A DNA stretch of 64,000 nucleotides from Pelagomonas calceolata (taxonomy: Eukaryota): contig CAKKNE010000005.1 in assembly GCA_918797485.1 (NCBI GenBank), forward strand, positions 3,286,001 to 3,350,000, given 5' to 3'. The translations under genes were made by a program, and so were the position numbers. Shown here in pieces: positions 1,636-49,618 of this stretch. Within the stretch, counting starts at the first letter, position 1, and each line of letters begins with the position of its first letter. Under the pieces are notes generated by a model. It saw only the letters and a list, made by a program, of their open reading frames with translations, was not told the origin of the DNA and did no database searches.

Positions 1636-2515
1636 ATGCACAAAACACTTCTCGCGACCCTCCTCATTGCCGCCAGCGCTTTCCGTCCGCCGCTGCGCCT
1701 CGCACCGCTACGAACCCTCTCAACACTGCGCGCCGCGCCCGACGCGGACAAGTCCGTCGACGCGGCCATCGACCAGCGCGCCGCCGAACTGGCCTCATCG
1801 AAACAGATCGCGCGCGCGACGCTGCCGGGGAATAGGAGGGCGTTGGCATTGTGGCGCGTCGGCTGGCTCAGCTGGTGGTGCCAGGTCATCCTCACGACGA
1901 TCAGCGCCGTCGTGCTCACGTTCGCCAAAGTCTCGGCACCATCGACAGCCACCCAACCGGAGGCGGCGTTGGCGTCGGGGTTCCTCTTCGCGAGCGCCGG
2001 CGCCATGTTTTCGTTGATGTCGAGTTTTTGGACGTGGAGATTAGTACGATTAGCGAGACTGGAGTCGAGCGAAGCTTCTGGAGTGCAGAAGATCGTCAGG
2101 CGGACGCAGAAGGCCTTGAGATTTGGCGCGAAACTCAACTTGGTGGGCATGGCGCTGACACTGTTAGCGGCGGAGCAGGTCGTCGGCACGCTGATCATGA
2201 AGGCGCTCGTCGCGCCGGGAAGCTTAGCAGGCGTCTGGTCCGGCACGGCGCCCCAGGCCATGCAGGTGCGCCGGACCGCGTCTCTCGTTCTTCGAAAACT
2301 CCGTGGCGCAATGGATAGCGTATCAGACTTCGAATCTGGGGGTTGCGGGTTCAAGTCCCGTCGGAGTTGGATGTGTCGTCACGCGCAATTTCCCCTCGCA
2401 GGCCTTCAACACGATTGATGTCTTTGTGATCCAGGCGACGACAAATACGCTCTGCGCGCACTTCATCTCGCTGCTCTCGACCTTATCGTTGCTCGCTAGA
2501 TCCGTGAAGTGGTAA
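1636..2515 (+). CDS. DUF3611-family plastid-targeted membrane protein, exons 1636..2265 and 2402..2515
   Basis: Signal peptide plus ASAF motif; GWLSWWCQVIL motif; GT(2266)..AG(2401) splice restores the family-like C-terminus IDVFVIQATTNTLCAHFISL. Confidence 0.8.
2297..2369 (+). tRNA. tRNA-Arg (anticodon TCG), intronic
   Basis: Cloverleaf: acceptor AACTCCG/CGGAGTT, D arm GCGC-AATGGATA-GCGT, anticodon arm TCAGA-CTTCGAA-TCTGG, T arm GCGGG-TTCAAGT-CCCGT; 73 nt. Confidence 0.93.
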
Positions 2516-36771: not shown

Positions 36772-37785
36772 CTACTTCTTTTGTGGCGGAGGACACCAGA
36801 GGCTCAGCGCGATGCCGCCGCCGAGCGTCGCGACGATGACCCCTAAACTCCACGACGTCGGTACGTGGATATGATAGTACTCCGCGAGCATTTTGAGGCC
36901 GACGAAGCCCAAGATCAACGCCACGGCCGGTCTCAAGTAAGGTAAGCCCGCGATAGCCGCTGATAAAACCTGGTACAAGGACCGTAGCGCCGCAATGGCG
37001 AAGATGTTTGAGCTATAAACGATGAAGGGGTCCTTCGTGATCGCGAGTACTGCTGGGATGGAGTCGACCGCAAACACAAAGTCGGATAGCTCGATGCACA
37101 CTACACACAGCAACAAGGGTGTAGCTGCACGACTACCATCCCTTAACTTCGTGAAGAACTTGTCCCCATCATAATACTCTACGGACTTCGTCACCGCTTT
37201 CGATAACCTTACGAGGGAGTTGTTGCCCATTTCCTCGTCGTCGTGATCGCCCTCTGTTAGTAATTTCGCGGCCGAGGCGAGCAACACCCCCGCAAACAAC
37301 AAAGTCACGACTCGGAACCGTTGCACTAACTCGACACCCACGAGAATCATGACGCCTCGCATCAACAGGGCACCGATGATGCCCCACCTTAGTGCTTTCT
37401 CCTGCATGGATGCCGGGACCCGAAAGTACTCAAACAGCAAAATGAACACGAACAAGTTGTCCACGCTCAGCGATTGTTCGACTAGGTACCCCGCGAAGAA
37501 CTCCATCGCGACCTCCTTGCCTCTGGTAACTGCGACGCCGACGCCAAACGCGCAGGCGCTTAATATAACACCGATGGTCGTGATCACGGCCTGGCGCATC
37601 TCGGCGTCGCTTGCCTTGGCGATGGTGCCGCCGCTGACACATAGTGCTGTGTTGTCTATTGGTTTTGCGGCGGCGCGGCCGGTGACCGGCTTTAACGCGA
37701 GCGGCTTGGCGCGCTGTTGCGGGCGGGCCGCGACGTGCGCCAGGAGCAGCGCGCAGGCGAGGCGCATCGTCCTGTGCCTGGGCAT
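36772..37785 (-). CDS. TERC: TerC-family membrane protein (thylakoid TerC-like)
   Basis: EFFAGYLVEQSLSVDNLFVF, IELSDFVFAVDSIPAV, SSNIFAIAALRSLY; N-terminal signal peptide. Confidence 0.92.
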   Translation of the reverse strand: MPRHRTMRLACALLLAHVAARPQQRAKPLALKPVTGRAAAKPIDNTALCVSGGTIAKASDAEMRQAVITTIGVILSACAFGVGVAVTRGKEVAMEFFAGYLVEQSLSVDNLFVFILLFEYFRVPASMQEKALRWGIIGALLMRGVMILVGVELVQRFRVVTLLFAGVLLASAAKLLTEGDHDDEEMGNNSLVRLSKAVTKSVEYYDGDKFFTKLRDGSRAATPLLLCVVCIELSDFVFAVDSIPAVLAITKDPFIVYSSNIFAIAALRSLYQVLSAAIAGLPYLRPAVALILGFVGLKMLAEYYHIHVPTSWSLGVIVATLGGGIALSLWCPPPQKK

Positions 37786-38070
37786 CTTGCTAGTTTGCTG
37801 CTATCTTGCTGTTGAGTGCAATGCTGCTATGTTCAAATTTGCTGGCAGCGCAGTTCTATGAGCTGTGGCGTCTCCGAGTCGACGAGAGCACGACAGCGTC
37901 AAGATATGGGCAGGGTGGCAGGTTAAGCGCTATAACTCCTCACCACTCGTCACTTTTTCATCAAAATATTCCTAGCGGCCTTATGCCGCTAGCTGATTAG
38001 TTTTGCCACTCCGCTCCGTCCTGCAACTGTGCCAGCGAGGCAAGGAGGGCCGTAGAAGTCATAAAAACAT

Positions 38071-40020
38071 ATGCGGCGGCGAGCACTGATGCTGCTCTTT
38101 GCGAGCAGCGCCAGGGCGCTGCTGCGCGCCGGCGCACCGGTAGGACGGCTGGCGCGCCGCGCTGCGAGCACCGCCGACGAGCAACTCGTAGCTGTCAAGG
38201 TCACCATCGACCAGAGGTTGAGAGACGCCCTGCGCCTGCCCGGCAAGCAGCGCCGACCGCGCTGTTTTGTCAGAGACAAAGACGAAGCGACGCTAAGAGA
38301 CGCTATTGAACAGAAGGTTCCTTCATTAAAACTGCAGGACTACGCCATCCGACACGAGGATGATACTGTGGTCGTCGAGCCAAGAGGCCCACTCCTCACA
38401 ACTACAGACAAAGAGCCGGAGGTGGTCACTTCCGATAAATACGCCATGGTGTCGTGGTACCACTTCTTCACCGGTAAACACGACGCAGAAGCATTAGTCA
38501 GGACGCTCCAGGCGACCTGGTCCCAAATGGGCGTCCTCGGCCGGGCTTATGTGGCAAATGAAGGCGTCAACGCGCAGCTCTGCGTGCCCGATACCCACGT
38601 GGACACGTACAAGGAGCACCACGCCCGGCTCTTCGACAAACTTGAAGAAGAAGCGCCTTCATTAAACTTCGACGGCACGGTAGAAAAGGAAGAAACGATG
38701 CCGTTCCGCGCGCTGAAGGTTCGGACCAGGGATTATGTGGTCGCGGACGACGGCGTCGGCGCCGATTTAGATTTGCAGGATCCCGGTGTTGATCTGGAGC
38801 CGTCGACGTGGCACGAACAGTTAGGAGGCGACTTCGGCGACAATAATACGTCTACAAACACCATCTTAGATGTGCGCAACCACTACGAGAGCGCCGTGGG
38901 TTCCTTCGCCGGCGCGACGCCGCTAAATACGGAGACCTTCAAGGACACCTACCAAGCGCTCGACGCGGCCCTGGCCGCGAAGCCGAAAAGCGAGCCCGTC
39001 TACATGTTCTGCACGGGCGGCATCCGGTGTGTGAAGGCCGGCGCCTACGTCAAACAAAAGCTCGGGTTTAGCGATGTCCGGCGACTGAAAGGGGGCGTCG
39101 TCAACTACACTCAACAACTCTCCGAGACGAACCTCGAGGAGACGTCGCGGTTCCGGGGCGTCAATTACGTGTTTAATGATCGCGTGGGAGAAAGGGTGAC
39201 GGCGCCTCCAGTACCAGATGGCGAGGTCCTCGATTCAAGAGCCGCGGAAGCGTTGGTGGCCGTGCATGATTCAACAGATGAGGATGCACAGATCGTGCAC
39301 CCCGCGGACGCGTACGCCGTCTCGTTATCCGGCCCGGAGCACCCTCTCATCGAGAGATGTAGGTTGGATGCTTCCGCAAGGTACCCGGCGGCGGCCCACA
39401 TGTGCTCGGGGCCGACGCAGGGCAAATTGCTCGCGACGCTCTGTAAACTAAGGGGCGCGGCCCGCGTTCTGGAGCTCGGCACGTTCTGCGGCTACGGGAC
39501 GCTCTGGCTCAGCAGCGCGTCGAAGGAAGTCATTACGGTGGACCGGGACGAGCGCGCCGCGAACGTTGCAAAGGAGCATTTTCGAGATGTACCTGCGGAC
39601 TGGGGTGCCGTGCGGCAGGTCGTCGCCGATCGCGGCCAGTACCTTGAGAACTGCAAAGACGGCCCCTTCGATTTGGTGTACGTCGACTGCGACAAGAAGG
39701 GCTACGCCGCGGTCTTCGACGCCTTGCTGGATACGCCGGGCCTCTTGTCCTCAAATGCGTGCCTCGTCTTTGACAACACGCTCTGGAAGGGCCGCGTGGC
39801 CGAGGGCACGACTGGTATGAGTCCAAGCGAAGAGGAGGCCATCCTTGCCGAAGCGGAGTTGAATGGAGACGACCCGAAGCGGGCGCTCAAGGCCGCGCGG
39901 CGCGACCGGGCCGTGGCGCAGGCGCTCCACGAGTTCAACGTCAAGCTCCGGAAGGATACGCGCGTGGACCCGCTCGTGCTGCCGCTGCGGGACGGGCTGA
40001 CCGTCGCGACCCTTACGTAA
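38071..40020 (+). CDS. Fusion of a TrhO/UPF0176 rhodanese-like tRNA U34 hydroxylase and a CCoAOMT/TrmR-family O-methyltransferase
   Basis: LGRAYVANEGVNAQL, ILDVRNHYESAVGSF, MFCTGGIRCVKA, LKGGVVNY, FRGVNYVFNDRV; then QGKLL...RVLELGTFCGYG, FDLVYVDCDKKGY, DNTLWKGRV, LPLRDGLT. One continuous ORF. Confidence 0.88.
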   Translation: MRRRALMLLFASSARALLRAGAPVGRLARRAASTADEQLVAVKVTIDQRLRDALRLPGKQRRPRCFVRDKDEATLRDAIEQKVPSLKLQDYAIRHEDDTVVVEPRGPLLTTTDKEPEVVTSDKYAMVSWYHFFTGKHDAEALVRTLQATWSQMGVLGRAYVANEGVNAQLCVPDTHVDTYKEHHARLFDKLEEEAPSLNFDGTVEKEETMPFRALKVRTRDYVVADDGVGADLDLQDPGVDLEPSTWHEQLGGDFGDNNTSTNTILDVRNHYESAVGSFAGATPLNTETFKDTYQALDAALAAKPKSEPVYMFCTGGIRCVKAGAYVKQKLGFSDVRRLKGGVVNYTQQLSETNLEETSRFRGVNYVFNDRVGERVTAPPVPDGEVLDSRAAEALVAVHDSTDEDAQIVHPADAYAVSLSGPEHPLIERCRLDASARYPAAAHMCSGPTQGKLLATLCKLRGAARVLELGTFCGYGTLWLSSASKEVITVDRDERAANVAKEHFRDVPADWGAVRQVVADRGQYLENCKDGPFDLVYVDCDKKGYAAVFDALLDTPGLLSSNACLVFDNTLWKGRVAEGTTGMSPSEEEAILAEAELNGDDPKRALKAARRDRAVAQALHEFNVKLRKDTRVDPLVLPLRDGLTVATLT

Positions 40021-40307
40021 TCGTCTATTTGTGTGCATCCGTCTCCGGGCGCGGGATGGGCGCGGGCCGCGTCTTTCGTAATCTGGGTAGACCGCCTCGG
40101 CAAATCCCCTGACCCGTGCGCATCATTCGCCCTGTCGACCAACGTGTCGCACGACTTGCGCGCGCCGCGCGGTCTGCGTGCGGGCAGCTCTCTCAGCCAG
40201 AGCACCCATGATTCCAGCGCTAAATGCGTGAGGTAGACACGAAGGAAGATCGCCATCATCAAGGAATCGGCCCGGGGGCTATCACATTAGCGCAAGAGTG
40301 CGGCAGC

Positions 40308-43300
40308 ATGAAGTTGGGCAGCGTATTGCCGGCGGGAAATGGAGTGTTTGCCTATGATTGCTTCGACTCCACGCGAGCGTGCACCTACGACCAGCTGCGG
40401 ACCCTCCTCAACGACGACCTGGGCGGCGCAGACGCGTCGACGCGGGTGGCGATCGCGATGCGGAACGGCGCCGACCTCGCGCTCGCGCTACTCCGAGTGA
40501 TGCATTGGGCGATCGCGGTGCCGCTCTGCCCGAACAGCTCGCCGGCGGAGCTGCGCGCGGCCATGGAGGGCTGCGCATACTGCATCGTCGACGCAACGGA
40601 CGGTCCCCCCACGGCGGCGGCGGCCGCCGCCGCCGCGGCCGGCGCTTCTGTCGTCGTCGCGGAGCCCAAATCCGGCGAGGCAGGCGCAGTTTTCCAAATC
40701 GCGGCGGAGGCGGTCCGGCGGCCTCCGATGCGGGCCTTCTCGCTCCGGCGCATGTTCTCGTCAAGTCGTATGCTCTCGGCGAAGTCCATGTCGGCGCTGC
40801 CGCCCTGTCTTGTTTTGCGGACGTCGGGCACGACGGGCCAGCCGAAGCTCGTTTATAAAACGCAGCAGCAATTGTCAAGAGGCGGCGCCATCATCGCGAA
40901 AACATTAATGCTGGAACCCTCGGACTGCTGCCTCAACTTCATGCCTTTGCACCACATCGGCGGCATCGTGGCGAACATCTACGCGCCGCTCGCGTCGGGC
41001 TCGGGCGCGGTCTACATCGCCAAGTTTTCGGCGGCGCTGGTCCTGAACCTTGATAACTTGGTACCGAAGGTCACCTGGATCTACTGCGTCCCCAGTCACC
41101 TCCAGGCCATACTGAGTGCGCGGACGCCCGATAGCAAACCCCCGAGTTGCGTCCGCCTCTACCGCAGCGGCGCGGCCGCGCTGCCCGTGGCCGTCGCCGA
41201 GGAGCTCAAGGCCTGGTCCGGGGCGACCGTGCTGCCCACGTATAGCATGTCCGAATGTATGCCAATTGCCTCACCGGACCGCTCGTACGATTTAGGAAGG
41301 CCCTACAGCGTCGGTCCCGCCGTGGGGCCGGACCTCATGATTTCGGAAAAGGGCGAGGTCCTCATCCGCGGGCCGATGGTGTCGACCGACAATCCTGAAG
41401 AGTGGTTCGCGACCGGCGATTTGGGTTCCATCGACGCGGACGGCTGGCTCACGCTCACGGGCCGGTCGAAGGAGATCATCAACCGGGGCGGCGAGGTGGT
41501 AGGTCCCTTAGAAGTCGAGGACGCGTGCCTGCGCCACCCCGCCGTCGCCGAGTGCGTGTGTTTTGCGGTGCCGCACGAAGCACTGGGCGAGGCGCTCGGG
41601 TTGTGCATCGTGCCACACTCCAACATTGTGGCGCCGTCGCTCGACGAGCTCCGCCAGTTCCTGGAGCCCTACCTCACGGCCGCCAAGCGGCCGCAGCACG
41701 TCTGGTACATGACGTCACTAATCAAGGGCCCCACGGGCAAGCCGCTCCGCGTCGGTTTAGCGGATAAGCTGGGCATCGCGAAGCAGGGCGGCGAAACGGG
41801 CGGCGGCATCGCGGCGTCGGCATCGTCAGTAGATGCCGTCATCGAGGCGGTGCGGCGCGTCACGGGCATCAAGGCGACCAGCGGCGCCGCGCGCGTCTCG
41901 GACCTCGGCATGGACTCGCTGAGCTTGATGCGCCTCTCGCACGCCCTGCGCGGGCTCGGCGGGTCGTCGGAGGTGGACAAATTACTATTAGCGGACGCGA
42001 CGATCGACACGCTCGCCCTGGCCGTCGCGCGCCCCGCGGCCGCGGCGGCGGAGAAGACGATCGACCTGGATCCGGTCTTCGGCCTCCGCTCCTTGTTTTG
42101 CCTCTTCGTGGTGCGAGCGCACTTCGCGCGCCACTTCGCGGCGCTCTGCGACACGTGGTGGTTCGACATCCACCACGCCTGGCACACGTCCGTCTTCTTC
42201 ATCATCAGCGGCGCGCAGATGTTCATGACCTACTCCGAGCGGCCGGTGCCGACGAAGACGCTCCTGAAGAACTTTTACGTCGCGACGCTGCCGCTCTACT
42301 ACTTCACGATGGCCGTGGGCGCGGCGGTGTCGTGCCCCCTGGTCGGGCCCGCCTCCTACCTCCTCGCGGCGCCGGTGGCTCTCAGCCCCTGGTGGTCCGG
42401 GAGCGCGCTGGCCCCCGCGTGGTACCACATGTGCCAATTCTGGAACGTCCTCTTCTTCAACCACATAAGGTGGCGTATCCGCTGGGAGCGGTTGTGTGCG
42501 TGCTGCGGCGGGGTGCCTGTCGGCTTCTCCGGCGGGTGGTGTTGCTGTTGTGTGGAACCGGAACCGGGATGCGCCATCGGCTGGTCCAGGCCGATCCCCG
42601 ACGAGCCCGACGTCGCATACCCAAAATGTTGCGCCTGCAAGACGGCCGTCAAGAAGCCCATACCCCCTCCCAAAAGCCTCGGCGAGTTCGGACGGAGGCT
42701 GGTGGCCCCGGGCCTCCTCGCGGCGTTCCTCAACTGGTTCTGGCACCCCATCCCGCCCTTTCGGATGGCGCAGTTCGCGCTCGGTATGGTCATCGGCCAG
42801 GGATGTCTGTCGGTCGAGTTGAACGCGGCCGAGCGCAAAAAGGTGGGCCGGGGCACGGACGCCATCTTTTTCATTTTCATGGTCCCTGAACTGTGTGAAA
42901 ATCAAACAGTGAGTTGGCTGCACGATTCTGCGCGAAGGCGCCATATGAAATTTTGATTTATGCACAGGTCCTGAAGTTCTCGCCCCACGAAATCGTTGCG
43001 TGGGTCCAGTACGGGATCCACTCCGTGCCCGAGGCGCTCCTCGTGTTCGGGCTCTGCCGCGCGCCGTCGGAATCGTGGACGGCGCGGCTGCTGACGCACC
43101 CGCTATTTTTAGGGTTCGTGCCGTACACGTTCGCGGCCTACATCATCCACTTCCCGGTTCTATTGTTCGCGCAGTTCGTGCGGATCGAGGGGATTACCTC
43201 GCTCAAAGAGCTGATGCGCCACGTGTATCGCCACGATAACTGCTACGAGAGCGACTGGATCAACCGGGCGCGCGGCGATCACGAAACCGAAGACGATGAG

Positions 43301-47836: not shown

Positions 47837-49618
47837 ATGGCTTCTCCCCCAAATGGCGCGCCGCGACGCCGCTTCTTCCAGCGCCCCGTGAATGCGAACG
47901 CGCCGCAAGACTACACGCCCTTCGCCGCGCCGCCGCCGCCGCCCGGGTCTGCCCGCCGCAGCTCGGGACGACGCGTCACCGACTTCCTCCCGAACGCCAC
48001 GCCGACGACCACGGACTCGGCCTTCTCGCCGCGCCGAGCGCTGGATTTCCTGCCGACGAGCGCGCCACCACCCCTACCGCCCCCGTCGCCTTTAGAAGCC
48101 GAGAACGCCGAGTTGAGAAGGAGGCTCGCCGAGGCCGAGCGCAGTGCTGTCCAGGATGAGCGTCTACTCAGGCAGCGGGCCTCGGAGGATGCGGAAGCTT
48201 TACAAAATGAGGTGAAGGAGCTTAGGAGGCGCTGCTCTCTAGAAAACGAGGAGCGGCAACGGGCGGCCGACGAGGCCGAAAGATTAAGTAAGGAGCTCAC
48301 CGAACGCGGCGAGGCGACGCTCCAGGAAGTATCAAAACTCAACACGAAGCTGGCGCAGGCCGAGCGGAAGGTGAAGGTGAGGACCGAGAACGAGGACGAC
48401 GACCCGCTCCGGCCCGGGTTCCACCGCCGCGCGTCGGAACGCATCAAGGAGGTGTATCTGAGTGCCATGAACGAGCACTTCGAGCGCGTGGCTTCTGGTG
48501 TTGTGGCTCTACGGAAGAGTTCCGAGCGCGAAGCCGCGGAAGAATCGGTGGAAGGCTACGCGTCGCTCGTGCGAAAGGCGCTCCGCGAACGATCGGCGGC
48601 CGACGCGAATCTCAAAGATGGGTTGGAAGCTTTAAGCCCCTCGCCCAGCTTATCGCCGCGCTTCGACGATTTTGCAAGCCCCTCTTCTGCTGCTAGAGTG
48701 TCCAAACCCACCCTCACGAACGTGTCCACCGACCCTCGAGAAGTGGAAGTGGAGATCACCGTGACCACACCAGATGCGACCGTGGAGTACTGCGTGTCGC
48801 ACGTGAACGCCGCCGGCAGTCCCCGGTCGATCACGATCCCGGCCGAGAACAAGTGGACCCGCGCGGACGAACCTGGGGCGGTGCGGCTGCCTAGATTAGC
48901 TGCTGGCGGAAGACACGTCGTGATCTGTCGAGCCACGGCGCCCGGCCGGCCGACGTCCAAGGTCGCGTCCGAGGCCTTTGACCTCCTACCTCCCAATCTC
49001 GTGCAGCACTCCAGACACCCCCACGAACTGCGCGTGTTGCGACAACCGGGCGGGCAGTGCGAGCTTTGTGGATTGAGCGACGATGCGAGGCCGGGCTACG
49101 GCTGCCCGGAATGTCCGGAGTTTGTTCTGTGCGCGAAATGTGCCCTGCCGCCCGGTTTTTCGCCAGACGTCGAGCAGGCCGAGAAGGACTGCGTCGCCGT
49201 GGATGTGGGGGCGAAGCGCGTGTGGCTGTCGCGGCGCATCGAGTTCAAGGGCAACTACACGCGGATCCTGGACGGCTCGTTCGGCGTCCTCGATCAGCTG
49301 GCCTTGACTTTGAAACAGCATTCCGGCATCCGATTGCGGCTCGAGGGCCACGTCAACTCGAAGTGCGGTCTGGGTTGTGATGGGTCCACCGAGTGCTCGA
49401 ACAACCGGTGTGCCGCACTGTTCAGAGGCAGAGGTGGTTCGGTGGGCTTCTCGCTGGGACGGGCCGACGCCGTCGCCGAGGCGTTACATGAGCGGGGCAT
49501 CGAGGCCTACCGGCTCGAATGTCGAGGATTGGGCGGGTCGAGAGTGGTGGAGGACACGGAAGGGGATTTGAAGCATCGGAACCGACGGGTCGAGGTGCAC
49601 ACGGTGGCGTGGTCCTAG
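47837..49618 (+). CDS. Coiled-coil + Ig/FN3-like + C1/DC1-like Zn finger + OmpA C-terminal-like domain protein
   Basis: HPHEL...CELCG...YGCPECPEFVLCAKC; IEFKGN...LDQLALTL..H..IRLRLEGH, SLGRADAV..AL..RGI, RGLG, RNRRVEV. Confidence 0.75.
   Translation: MASPPNGAPRRRFFQRPVNANAPQDYTPFAAPPPPPGSARRSSGRRVTDFLPNATPTTTDSAFSPRRALDFLPTSAPPPLPPPSPLEAENAELRRRLAEAERSAVQDERLLRQRASEDAEALQNEVKELRRRCSLENEERQRAADEAERLSKELTERGEATLQEVSKLNTKLAQAERKVKVRTENEDDDPLRPGFHRRASERIKEVYLSAMNEHFERVASGVVALRKSSEREAAEESVEGYASLVRKALRERSAADANLKDGLEALSPSPSLSPRFDDFASPSSAARVSKPTLTNVSTDPREVEVEITVTTPDATVEYCVSHVNAAGSPRSITIPAENKWTRADEPGAVRLPRLAAGGRHVVICRATAPGRPTSKVASEAFDLLPPNLVQHSRHPHELRVLRQPGGQCELCGLSDDARPGYGCPECPEFVLCAKCALPPGFSPDVEQAEKDCVAVDVGAKRVWLSRRIEFKGNYTRILDGSFGVLDQLALTLKQHSGIRLRLEGHVNSKCGLGCDGSTECSNNRCAALFRGRGGSVGFSLGRADAVAEALHERGIEAYRLECRGLGGSRVVEDTEGDLKHRNRRVEVHTVAWS

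What the first reader, a model, noticed from the sequence alone, without database searches (positions are those of the whole stretch)
38071..40020. TrhO-like hydroxylase fused to a TrmR-type O-methyltransferase: candidate single-protein mo5U34 tRNA pathway in an algal organelle
Seen: one uninterrupted 649-aa ORF with a signal/transit-like N-terminus, a UPF0176 rhodanese-like domain (~38440-39190; EGVNAQ, DVRN.YE..VG.F, CTGGIRC, YVFNDR) and a full CCoAOMT-family methyltransferase (~39300-40020). Known: bacterial TrhO (YceA/YbfQ) hydroxylates tRNA wobble U34 to ho5U, and Bacillus TrmR (YrrM, the same O-methyltransferase family) methylates ho5U to mo5U. Inference: the fusion joins two consecutive steps and predicts mo5U34 in plastid or mitochondrial tRNAs of this alga, a modification mainly associated with Gram-positive bacteria. 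The Cys-rich C-terminal extension usual in TrhO appears replaced by the methyltransferase.
Basis: partly seen in the sequence, partly recalled or inferred. Interest (0 to 1): 0.9.

Follow-up and report, generated by a model that had tools for sequence, protein, structure and literature searches.

The report
Algal tRNA hydroxylase-methyltransferase fusion, tailless form
An expressed algal nuclear gene joins a tRNA wobble-uridine hydroxylase to an O-methyltransferase and likely makes 5-methoxyuridine on organelle tRNAs; the fusion was noted in print in 2019 and no paper we found has tested it, and this form lacks the usual cysteine-rich tail.

Summary
38071-40020 is one intronless 649-aa gene, spanned by single transcript-sized contigs in two runs. 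The TrhO half keeps every motif position that E. coli TrhO needs, with K112 as Arg, and groups with it.

The fusion is not new. Sakai et al. 2019 reported it in Phytophthora and Phaeodactylum, and this scan met it before in at least six other windows. I hold 131 fused proteins; named ones come from red algae, ochrophytes, alveolates, oomycetes, Rhizaria, an amoebozoan and a choanoflagellate.

Two corrections:
1. The methyltransferase is not a TrmR orthologue. It is sister to a Bacteroidota enzyme, and a clade with TrmR is rejected (p=6e-5). It does carry a basic helix with Arg at TrmR's tRNA-binding R178 site, so it likely works like TrmR by convergence.
2. The cysteine-rich tail was not replaced. 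109 of 131 fusions keep it; this lineage lost it later.

An extra ubiquitin-like domain precedes TrhO. Best reading: a one-chain U34→ho5U→mo5U enzyme, probably plastid-targeted here (about 0.6). No activity has been measured.

The parts
38071..40020 (+). Intronless ORF, 649 aa: TrhO-O-methyltransferase fusion
38014..40035 (+). Transcribed span (outer ends of two contigs that each cover the gene alone)
   Evidence: X5 38014-40012, X4 38022-40035; stranded reads X21, X23
38071..38175 (+). Leader aa 1-35: 8 K/R, no D/E, short hydrophobic stretch ending in an ARA-L motif; predicted organelle-targeting peptide (plastid-type by a crude rule, mitochondrial not excluded)
   Evidence: low pLDDT; no targeting predictor available
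38185..38388 (+). Accessory domain aa 39-106, beta-grasp (ubiquitin-like) fold by a weak match, no Pfam hit; found in algal-type members and not in oomycete, Plasmodiophora or Protostelium members
   Evidence: pLDDT 90.8; best Z 6.3, rmsd 2.2-2.5, 64 residues
38440..39195 (+). TrhO core aa 124-375 (UPF0176_N plus rhodanese)
   Evidence: (9J5O Z 26.3, 4F67 Z 25.0)
38722..38730 (+). R218 and R220, at the positions of E. coli TrhO K112 and R114 (tRNA-binding sheet)
39010..39030 (+). Active-site loop CTGGIRC aa 314-320 (E. coli C200-C206)
39196..39303 (+). Cysteine-free linker of about 36 aa where relatives carry the Cys-rich Rhodanese_C domain
39304..40017 (+). PF01596 O-methyltransferase aa 412-649 with metal/SAM residues D539, K542, D568, N569
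39877..39909 (+). Basic helix aa 603-613 in the substrate loop; R611 at the position of B. subtilis TrmR R178
   Evidence: helix 602-628

Best explanation
This expressed nuclear gene encodes one protein with an intact TrhO domain and an O-methyltransferase domain, which is predicted to be imported into an organelle, probably the plastid, and likely turns tRNA wobble uridine into 5-hydroxyuridine and then 5-methoxyuridine. Step 1 (inferred from full motif conservation and tree position next to E. coli TrhO): the rhodanese loop C314-R319 uses O2 to hydroxylate C5 of U34 in family-box tRNAs, which are held by R218/R220. Step 2 (inferred): the tethered methyltransferase moves a methyl group from SAM to the new 5-hydroxyl and grips the anticodon loop with its basic helix (R611). 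The methyltransferase does not descend from Bacillus TrmR. It was likely recruited from a Bacteroidota-type catechol O-methyltransferase and gained tRNA binding separately. The lineage that holds this gene later lost the Cys-rich tail of TrhO; the fused basic helix or the basic N-terminal domain may make up for it (speculative). The expected effect is better reading of Ala/Ser/Val/Thr/Pro codon boxes by single U34 tRNAs.
For: Single transcript-sized contigs, no intron. E. coli K112, R114 and C200-C206 map to R218, R220 and C314-C320; the six loop residues are invariant in 37 of 37 rows (36 fused plus one unfused eukaryote-type protein). Fused TrhO halves form one group (SH-aLRT 96) beside the E. 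coli/Bacteroidota TrhO group (98). 131 of the 374 proteins then held carry both domains, always in this order; named ones span red algae, ochrophytes, alveolates, oomycetes, Rhizaria, an amoebozoan and a choanoflagellate. Metal/SAM residues are kept in 60-61 of 61 fused domains. At the TrmR R178 position: K/R in 40 of 61 fused domains (36 Arg), Arg in 5 of 5 TrmR-clade references, K/R in 0 of 9 presumed small-molecule OMTs and in 9 of 27 Bacteroidota OMTs (7 Lys). Mean net charge of that helix is about +1.9, +4.8, -1.8 and -0.55 in the same order. A generic family member, Rv0187, methylates free ho5U to mo5U but not ho5U in tRNA (PMC6543040, passages), so the chemistry is within reach and tRNA binding is what must be added. 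Sakai et al. read the same fusion as pathway linkage.
Against: No activity and no nucleoside measurement. The methyltransferase is not in the TrmR clade (AU p=6e-5, 43 rows); its best solved relatives by sequence are small-molecule or uncharacterised OMTs (E about 1e-18 to 1e-19) and TrmR 5ZW3 ranks 40th (5e-9). Of the three Arg said to mark TrmR (PMC6158493), R90 is absent (A496) and R86 is present here (R492) but in only 15 of 61 fused domains. The Bacteroidota sister gene is not linked to trhO: no whole trhO in 80 of 80 loci, and 0 of 54 genomes with both genes have them adjacent. The Cys-rich tail that E. coli TrhO has is missing, and the NCBIfam score is just under the cut-off. Organelle tRNAs studied so far are described as using unmodified U34 (PMC11571807, passages). 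Targeting rests on a crude rule that scored only 11 of 52 algal-type leaders as signal plus motif.
Confidence: 0.6

Rival explanations
1. The TrhO half makes ho5U34, but the methyltransferase half is an ordinary catechol or small-molecule O-methyltransferase, or acts on free ho5U nucleoside, and is fused for co-import only.
For: Tree position among SafC/RenC-like and Bacteroidota OMTs, away from TrmR. Structural matches to COMT-, CCoAOMT- and TrmR-type enzymes are tied at Z 24-25.4. R90 is missing and R86 is variable. Three tandem-OMT proteins without TrhO and three short or partial proteins sit inside the fused clade.
Against: The fusion is kept in one order across many eukaryote groups. The substrate-loop helix is basic, whereas the sister Bacteroidota enzymes have Asp at N-10 in 26 of 27. 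R86 and R90 are also not kept in my TrmR-clade references (0 of 5 and 1 of 5), so they are weak markers.
Confidence: 0.17
2. The ancestral fusion makes mo5U34, but this tailless lineage has lost or changed the hydroxylase activity or tRNA range because the Cys-rich domain is needed.
For: All Cys of the tail are gone (linker 32-52 aa, 0 Cys in the pelagophyte-type rows). E. coli TrhO has the domain, and B. subtilis TrhO (9J5O, 317 residues modelled) is longer than the core. A tRNA-binding role for the tail is recalled, not read here.
Against: Catalytic and tRNA-binding residues are fully kept. The 11 tailless proteins tested form one side of a branch (92/74), so the form has lasted. Legionella Lpg2838 (4F67) is only 265 residues, and three proteobacterial TrhO proteins match the tail below Pfam's cut-off.
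Confidence: 0.1
3. The same two-step chemistry acts on another RNA or compartment: mitochondrial tRNA only, cytosolic tRNA, or an rRNA site.
For: Plastid-less lineages carry the fusion with short basic leaders and no signal-like stretch (0 of 18 by the same rule; names), which points to mitochondria there. The leader here is Arg-rich and amphipathic. ho5U was reported on tRNA-Gln(UUG) fragments of oil palm (PMC11954249, table passage).
Against: This protein belongs to the algal-type branch (98/94) with red algae, ochrophytes and Vitrella, where several members have clear signal-plus-F/L leaders. TrhO binds and modifies tRNA directly (PMC6599085, section read).
Confidence: 0.13

Closest known systems
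yceA(trhO)-trmR fusion genes of Phytophthora sojae, P. ramorum and Phaeodactylum tricornutum (Sakai, Kimura, Suzuki 2019, PMC6599085)
   Same: Same two domains in one gene; oomycete and diatom members fall in the same family in my trees. Sakai's supplementary table also scores the pelagophyte Aureococcus as having both TrhO and TrmR.
   Different: This member lacks the Cys-rich tail. It has an N-terminal beta-grasp domain that diatom members share and oomycete members lack. In the passages and sections I read, the paper used the fusion as a clue and did not test it, and it labels the second half TrmR, which the tree here does not support as descent.
TrhO (E. coli YceA; B. subtilis YbfQ, PDB 9J5O; Legionella Lpg2838, PDB 4F67)
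   Same: UPF0176_N plus rhodanese, CTGGIRC loop, basic sheet residues; 31% identity over 261 columns to E. coli TrhO; fold Z 25-26.
   Different: Fused to a methyltransferase, no Rhodanese_C domain, organelle-type leader, eukaryotic.
TrmR (B. subtilis YrrM, PDB 5ZW3/5ZW4; Ryu et al. 2018, PMC6158493)
   Same: PF01596 fold, metal triad and Lys kept, basic helix with Arg at the R178 position.
   Different: Separate branch of the family (AU p=6e-5); R90 absent, R181 position is Ala here; about 20% identity; fused, not standing in the mltG-trmR-U32-U32-udk operon.
Bacteroidota O-methyltransferase (e.g. Flavobacterium L001); function not established here
   Same: Nearest stand-alone bacterial group in both trees (92 SH-aLRT; 92/92); shared MxSGxxQG motif.
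   Different: Acidic substrate loop (Asp at N-10 in 26 of 27), stand-alone, not next to trhO.

Membership tests
TrhO | UPF0176_N plus rhodanese domain architecture and fold | tested here: met
TrhO | Essential loop residues C200, T201, G203, R205 | tested here: met
   C314, T315, G317, R319
TrhO | Basic sheet residues K112 and R114 | tested here: met
   R218 (conservative change, as in 26 of 37 rows) and R220
TrhO | NCBIfam equivalog cut-off (NF001133, 170 bits) | tested here: inconclusive
   166.1 whole, 169.2 domain alone; a bacterial model on a eukaryotic protein
TrhO | Cys-rich Rhodanese_C domain (present in E. coli TrhO; not universal) | tested here: not met
TrhO | O2-dependent ho5U34 formation on tRNA | not testable with these tools
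   needs an assay
TrmR | PF01596 fold with D133, K136, D159, N160 | tested here: met
   D539, K542, D568, N569; shared by the whole family, so not specific
TrmR | Belongs to the Firmicutes TrmR clade | tested here: not met
   (AU p=6e-5; 15 fused, 5 TrmR-clade, 23 other rows)
TrmR | Arg86 | tested here: inconclusive
   R492 here, but 15 of 61 fused domains and 0 of 5 TrmR-clade references
TrmR | Arg90 | tested here: not met
   A496; Arg lies one residue earlier (R495); 1 of 5 references has it
TrmR | Arg178 in a basic substrate-loop helix | tested here: met
   R611, counted back from the conserved Asn (N190 = N623)
TrmR | Methylates ho5U34 in tRNA | not testable with these tools
   needs an assay
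Eukaryotic TrhO-OMT fusion (Sakai 2019) | Both domains in one reading frame and transcript | tested here: met
Eukaryotic TrhO-OMT fusion (Sakai 2019) | Both halves group with oomycete and diatom fusion proteins | tested here: met
   the three proteins named by Sakai were not identified among my rows, relatives from other oomycetes and a diatom were
ThiS/MoaD-type sulfur carrier (N-terminal domain) | Free C-terminal Gly-Gly (recalled feature) | tested here: not met
   the domain is internal and has no Gly-Gly at its end; fold match only Z 6.3

The most novel reading that the evidence does not exclude
An old eukaryotic fusion invented a second, non-TrmR route to 5-methoxyuridine by tethering a Bacteroidota-type catechol methyltransferase to TrhO and giving it a tRNA-binding helix. 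It puts mo5U34 on mitochondrial tRNAs of plastid-less protists and on plastid tRNAs of red-lineage algae, overturning the view that organelles read family boxes with unmodified U34. In pelagophytes the methyltransferase has also taken over the job of TrhO's lost cysteine-rich tail.
Probability: 0.35. Interest if true: 0.7.

Novelty: new variant of a known kind. Interest (0 to 1): 0.4.

Why it matters
xo5U wobble modifications are treated as bacterial, and organelles as using unmodified U34 (PMC11571807, PMC10516636 abstract). Sakai et al. suggested xo5U might exist in eukaryotes but did not show it in what I read. This compact, intronless, tailless member is a convenient single gene to test that in E. 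coli or B. subtilis mutants. A positive result would show mo5U in algal organelles, a convergent origin of TrmR activity, and that TrhO's Cys-rich tail is dispensable. The architecture itself is already in print, so the surprise is moderate.

Tried and rejected
- Bacterial operon origin: no whole trhO within up to 8 kb in 80 of 80 Bacteroidota OMT loci (one locus, L032, had generic rhodanese matches; many flanks were shorter). Of 151 genomes drawn as 'phylum of G001', 54 had both genes and none had them adjacent; the nearest pair was about 20 kb apart (coordinates read by eye).
- Reversed-order fusions: P0358, P0359, P0370 and P0373 are tandem OMTs without TrhO.
- Structure search could not separate TrmR from COMT/CCoAOMT; all were tied.
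- The AU test on 121 rows did not finish; a 43-row subset was used. In that subset fused OMTs alone had weak support as one clade (55/28), against SH-aLRT 96 in the 121-row tree.
- A motif-anchored count caught only 4 of 122 TrmR-type rows and was replaced by the alignment-based count.
- The ESM Atlas gave no usable hit for the N-terminal domain; Foldseek gave none at E<=0.001.
- No whole genome is held, so paralogues, CmoA/CmoB and organelle tRNA sets could not be checked.
- The paper behind 9J5O did not appear in searches or 96.
- Searches listed no test of the fusion and no mo5U measurement in algae. One paper reports a 1.5-fold or greater rise of an mo5U signal in pepper leaves infected by Phytophthora capsici (PMC9663744, passages); its source organism is not resolved in those passages, so I treat it as a lead only.

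Full report
1. The observation. The ORF at 38071-40020 (+) gives 649 aa without a stop. Pfam finds UPF0176_N (aa 124-222), Rhodanese (261-348) and Methyltransf_3 (420-646), and no Rhodanese_C. The NCBIfam TrhO model scores 166-169 bits, cut-off 170. In two runs a single contig covers the gene and ends near its ends (38022-40035 and 38014-40012), with no other letters or gaps; these runs are only guessed to be RNA. Stranded polyA reads from one sample lie in the sense expected for a + strand RNA, at low depth in the 5' part, cover the junction between the halves and show no joint. A second read-laying on other runs could not be obtained, so the raw-read evidence is from one sample. The flanking genes are unrelated: a TerC protein on the other strand and an AMP-binding/carrier protein. 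The nearest named relatives are pelagophytes (Aureococcus 53%, Chrysophaeum 46%), so this is a pelagophyte-type nuclear gene. No whole genome is held.

2. It is already in print. Sakai, Kimura and Suzuki 2019 (PMC6599085; passages, two results sections, outline and supplement search seen) state that yceA and trmR are fused in Phytophthora sojae, P. ramorum and Phaeodactylum tricornutum, and used this to pick yceA as the hydroxylase. Their supplementary table scores Aureococcus as having both TrhO and TrmR. One supplementary PDF is pictures only and could not be searched. A search for yceA, trmR, fusion and Phytophthora listed only this paper with all four terms. This scan has also reported the fusion in at least six other windows, one of them tailless.

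3. How widespread. Of the 374 proteins then held, 131 match profiles of both halves, all with TrhO first; 109 keep the Cys-rich domain and 22 lack it. These counts include near-copies and fragments. Named members: Porphyridium, Gracilaria, Rhodosorus, Cyanidiococcus, Epithemia, an ochromonad, pelagophytes, Vitrella, Eimeria, Phytophthora fragariaefolia, Aphanomyces, Albugo, Plasmodiophora, Paulinella, Protostelium and Salpingoeca kvevrii. I looked up names for 30 fused proteins; most had none. Single transcriptome records (Protostelium, Salpingoeca, Paulinella) could be transfers or contamination; Salpingoeca groups with red algae.

4. The TrhO half. Against E. coli K-12 TrhO it is 31% identical over 261 columns. 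K112, R114 and C200-C206 map to R218, R220 and C314-C320; C200, T201, G203, R205, K112 and R114 are the residues shown to matter. In an 89-row tree the fused halves, with two other hits inside, form one group (SH-aLRT 96) beside the E. coli/Bacteroidota type (98). One row labelled fused there, P0312, has no methyltransferase. The predicted model (mean pLDDT 83.9, pTM 0.66) matches 9J5O and 4F67 best for this part.

5. The methyltransferase half. By sequence its best solved relatives are 3DUL, SafC, a Synechocystis OMT and 3TR6; TrmR ranks 40th. The nearest stand-alone bacterial proteins include a Bacteroidota O-methyltransferase. For TrmR references I used a Brevibacillus gene in the mltG-trmR-U32-U32-udk operon (E 1e-51 to 5ZW3), a Monoglobus gene beside mltG and three of its relatives; none is assayed. 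In a 121-row tree, 61 fused domains plus six unfused or partial proteins form one group (96), sister to Bacteroidota (92), with SafC/RenC-like enzymes between them and TrmR (two rows left out). In a 43-row tree fused plus Bacteroidota has 92/92, the fused set alone only 55/28, and fused plus TrmR is rejected at p=6e-5. So it is not a TrmR by descent.

6. Yet it has a TrmR-like surface. Ryu et al. 2018 (PMC6158493, parts 2-4 of 5 read) name R86, R90, K136, R178 and R181 as tRNA contacts, and R86, R90 and R178 as TrmR-specific. Counting from the printed 5ZW3 alignment, R178 lies 12 residues before the conserved N190. Here that is R611. At that position 40 of 61 fused domains have K/R (36 Arg), 5 of 5 TrmR references Arg, 0 of 9 presumed small-molecule OMTs K/R, and 9 of 27 Bacteroidota K/R (7 Lys). 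The helix is net basic in fused and TrmR proteins and net acidic in the other two sets. R86 is present here but in only 15 of 61; R90 is absent; both are also poorly kept in my TrmR references. Caveats: the count is anchored at one end of a variable insertion, related sequences are not independent, and the small-molecule set is defined by context, not assay. Rv0187, a promiscuous member of the family, turns free ho5U into mo5U but not ho5U in tRNA (PMC6543040, passages). This fits a generic catechol enzyme recruited by fusion and fitted with a basic loop. The bacterial sister gene shows no link to trhO, so the pairing appears to have arisen in eukaryotes; a donor and a direction were not tested.

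7. The tail and the extra domain. Most fusions read TrhO, Cys-rich domain, methyltransferase, so the tail was not replaced. In a concatenated 40-row tree the 11 tailless proteins form one side of a branch (92/74; 94% of 200 bootstrap trees), inside an algal-type group (98/94). One later loss is likely but not proven. Residues 39-106 fold with confidence (pLDDT 90.8) and resemble beta-grasp domains only weakly (best Z 6.3). The profile of this domain, built from these same proteins, finds it in the red algal, ochrophyte and Salpingoeca members, and not in the oomycete, Plasmodiophora, Protostelium, Vitrella, Eimeria or Paulinella members. It has no free Gly-Gly end, so a sulfur-carrier role is unlikely; its basic loop may bind RNA (guess).

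8. Where it acts. The first 35 residues have 8 K/R and no acidic residue. A crude rule for a signal peptide plus an ASA-F-like cleavage motif (motif recalled) is met here and in 11 of 52 leaders with the extra domain, and in 0 of 18 without it. Many leaders are truncated or red algal, where no signal peptide is expected, and the closest relatives start later and fall just short of the rule. I put plastid at about 0.55, mitochondrion 0.25, both 0.2 for this protein. Plastid-less members most likely act in mitochondria.

9. Verdict. Shown: one expressed gene, both domains, an intact TrhO site, a non-TrmR origin of the methyltransferase, a basic helix, loss of the tail. Inferred: import, ho5U formation, methylation to mo5U, effect on decoding. 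It works most likely like TrhO plus TrmR; it is a member of the published fusion family and not a member of the TrmR clade. New variant of a known kind, interest 0.4.

Noticed in passing
window 40224-42956 (+): 910-aa ORF with AMP-binding, AMP-binding_C and a carrier (PP-binding) domain followed by a hydrophobic tail that looks like a membrane acyltransferase; a small NRPS-like or acyl-transfer module. It is transcribed at least over 40213-41000.
   Followed up: no
window 36772-37785 (-): TerC-family membrane protein with a leader, head-to-head with the fusion gene (starts about 290 bases apart, transcript contigs about 65-70 bases apart) and more highly expressed in the reads laid.
   Followed up: no
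proteins P0358, P0359, P0370, P0373: Tandem double O-methyltransferases without TrhO; the first domain of the three placed in the tree falls inside the fused-OMT clade. Possibly a fission followed by duplication.
   Followed up: partly
proteins P0113-P0115: TrhO fused to an RNA pseudouridine synthase domain (PF00849), a second tRNA-enzyme fusion of TrhO.
   Followed up: no
protein P0241: 1563-aa record with a Cid1/MTPAP-like polymerase, two TrhO units and an O-methyltransferase; may be a merged gene model.
   Followed up: no
L001-L080: The Bacteroidota O-methyltransferase has one match per genome and recurring neighbours, among them a TatA-like small protein (43 of 80 loci) and a cluster that looks like kynurenine-pathway genes (about 10-20 loci) (names by eye, not scanned).
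   Followed up: partly
window 47837-49618 (+): 593-aa ORF with a C1-type zinc domain and a weak OmpA-like domain, an odd pairing for a eukaryote.
   Followed up: no
window 2297-2369 (+): Single tRNA-Arg(TCG) gene called by ARAGORN.
   Followed up: no
proteins P0008, P0009: These relatives (P0009 is named Aureococcus) carry two copies of the N-terminal beta-grasp domain.
   Followed up: no
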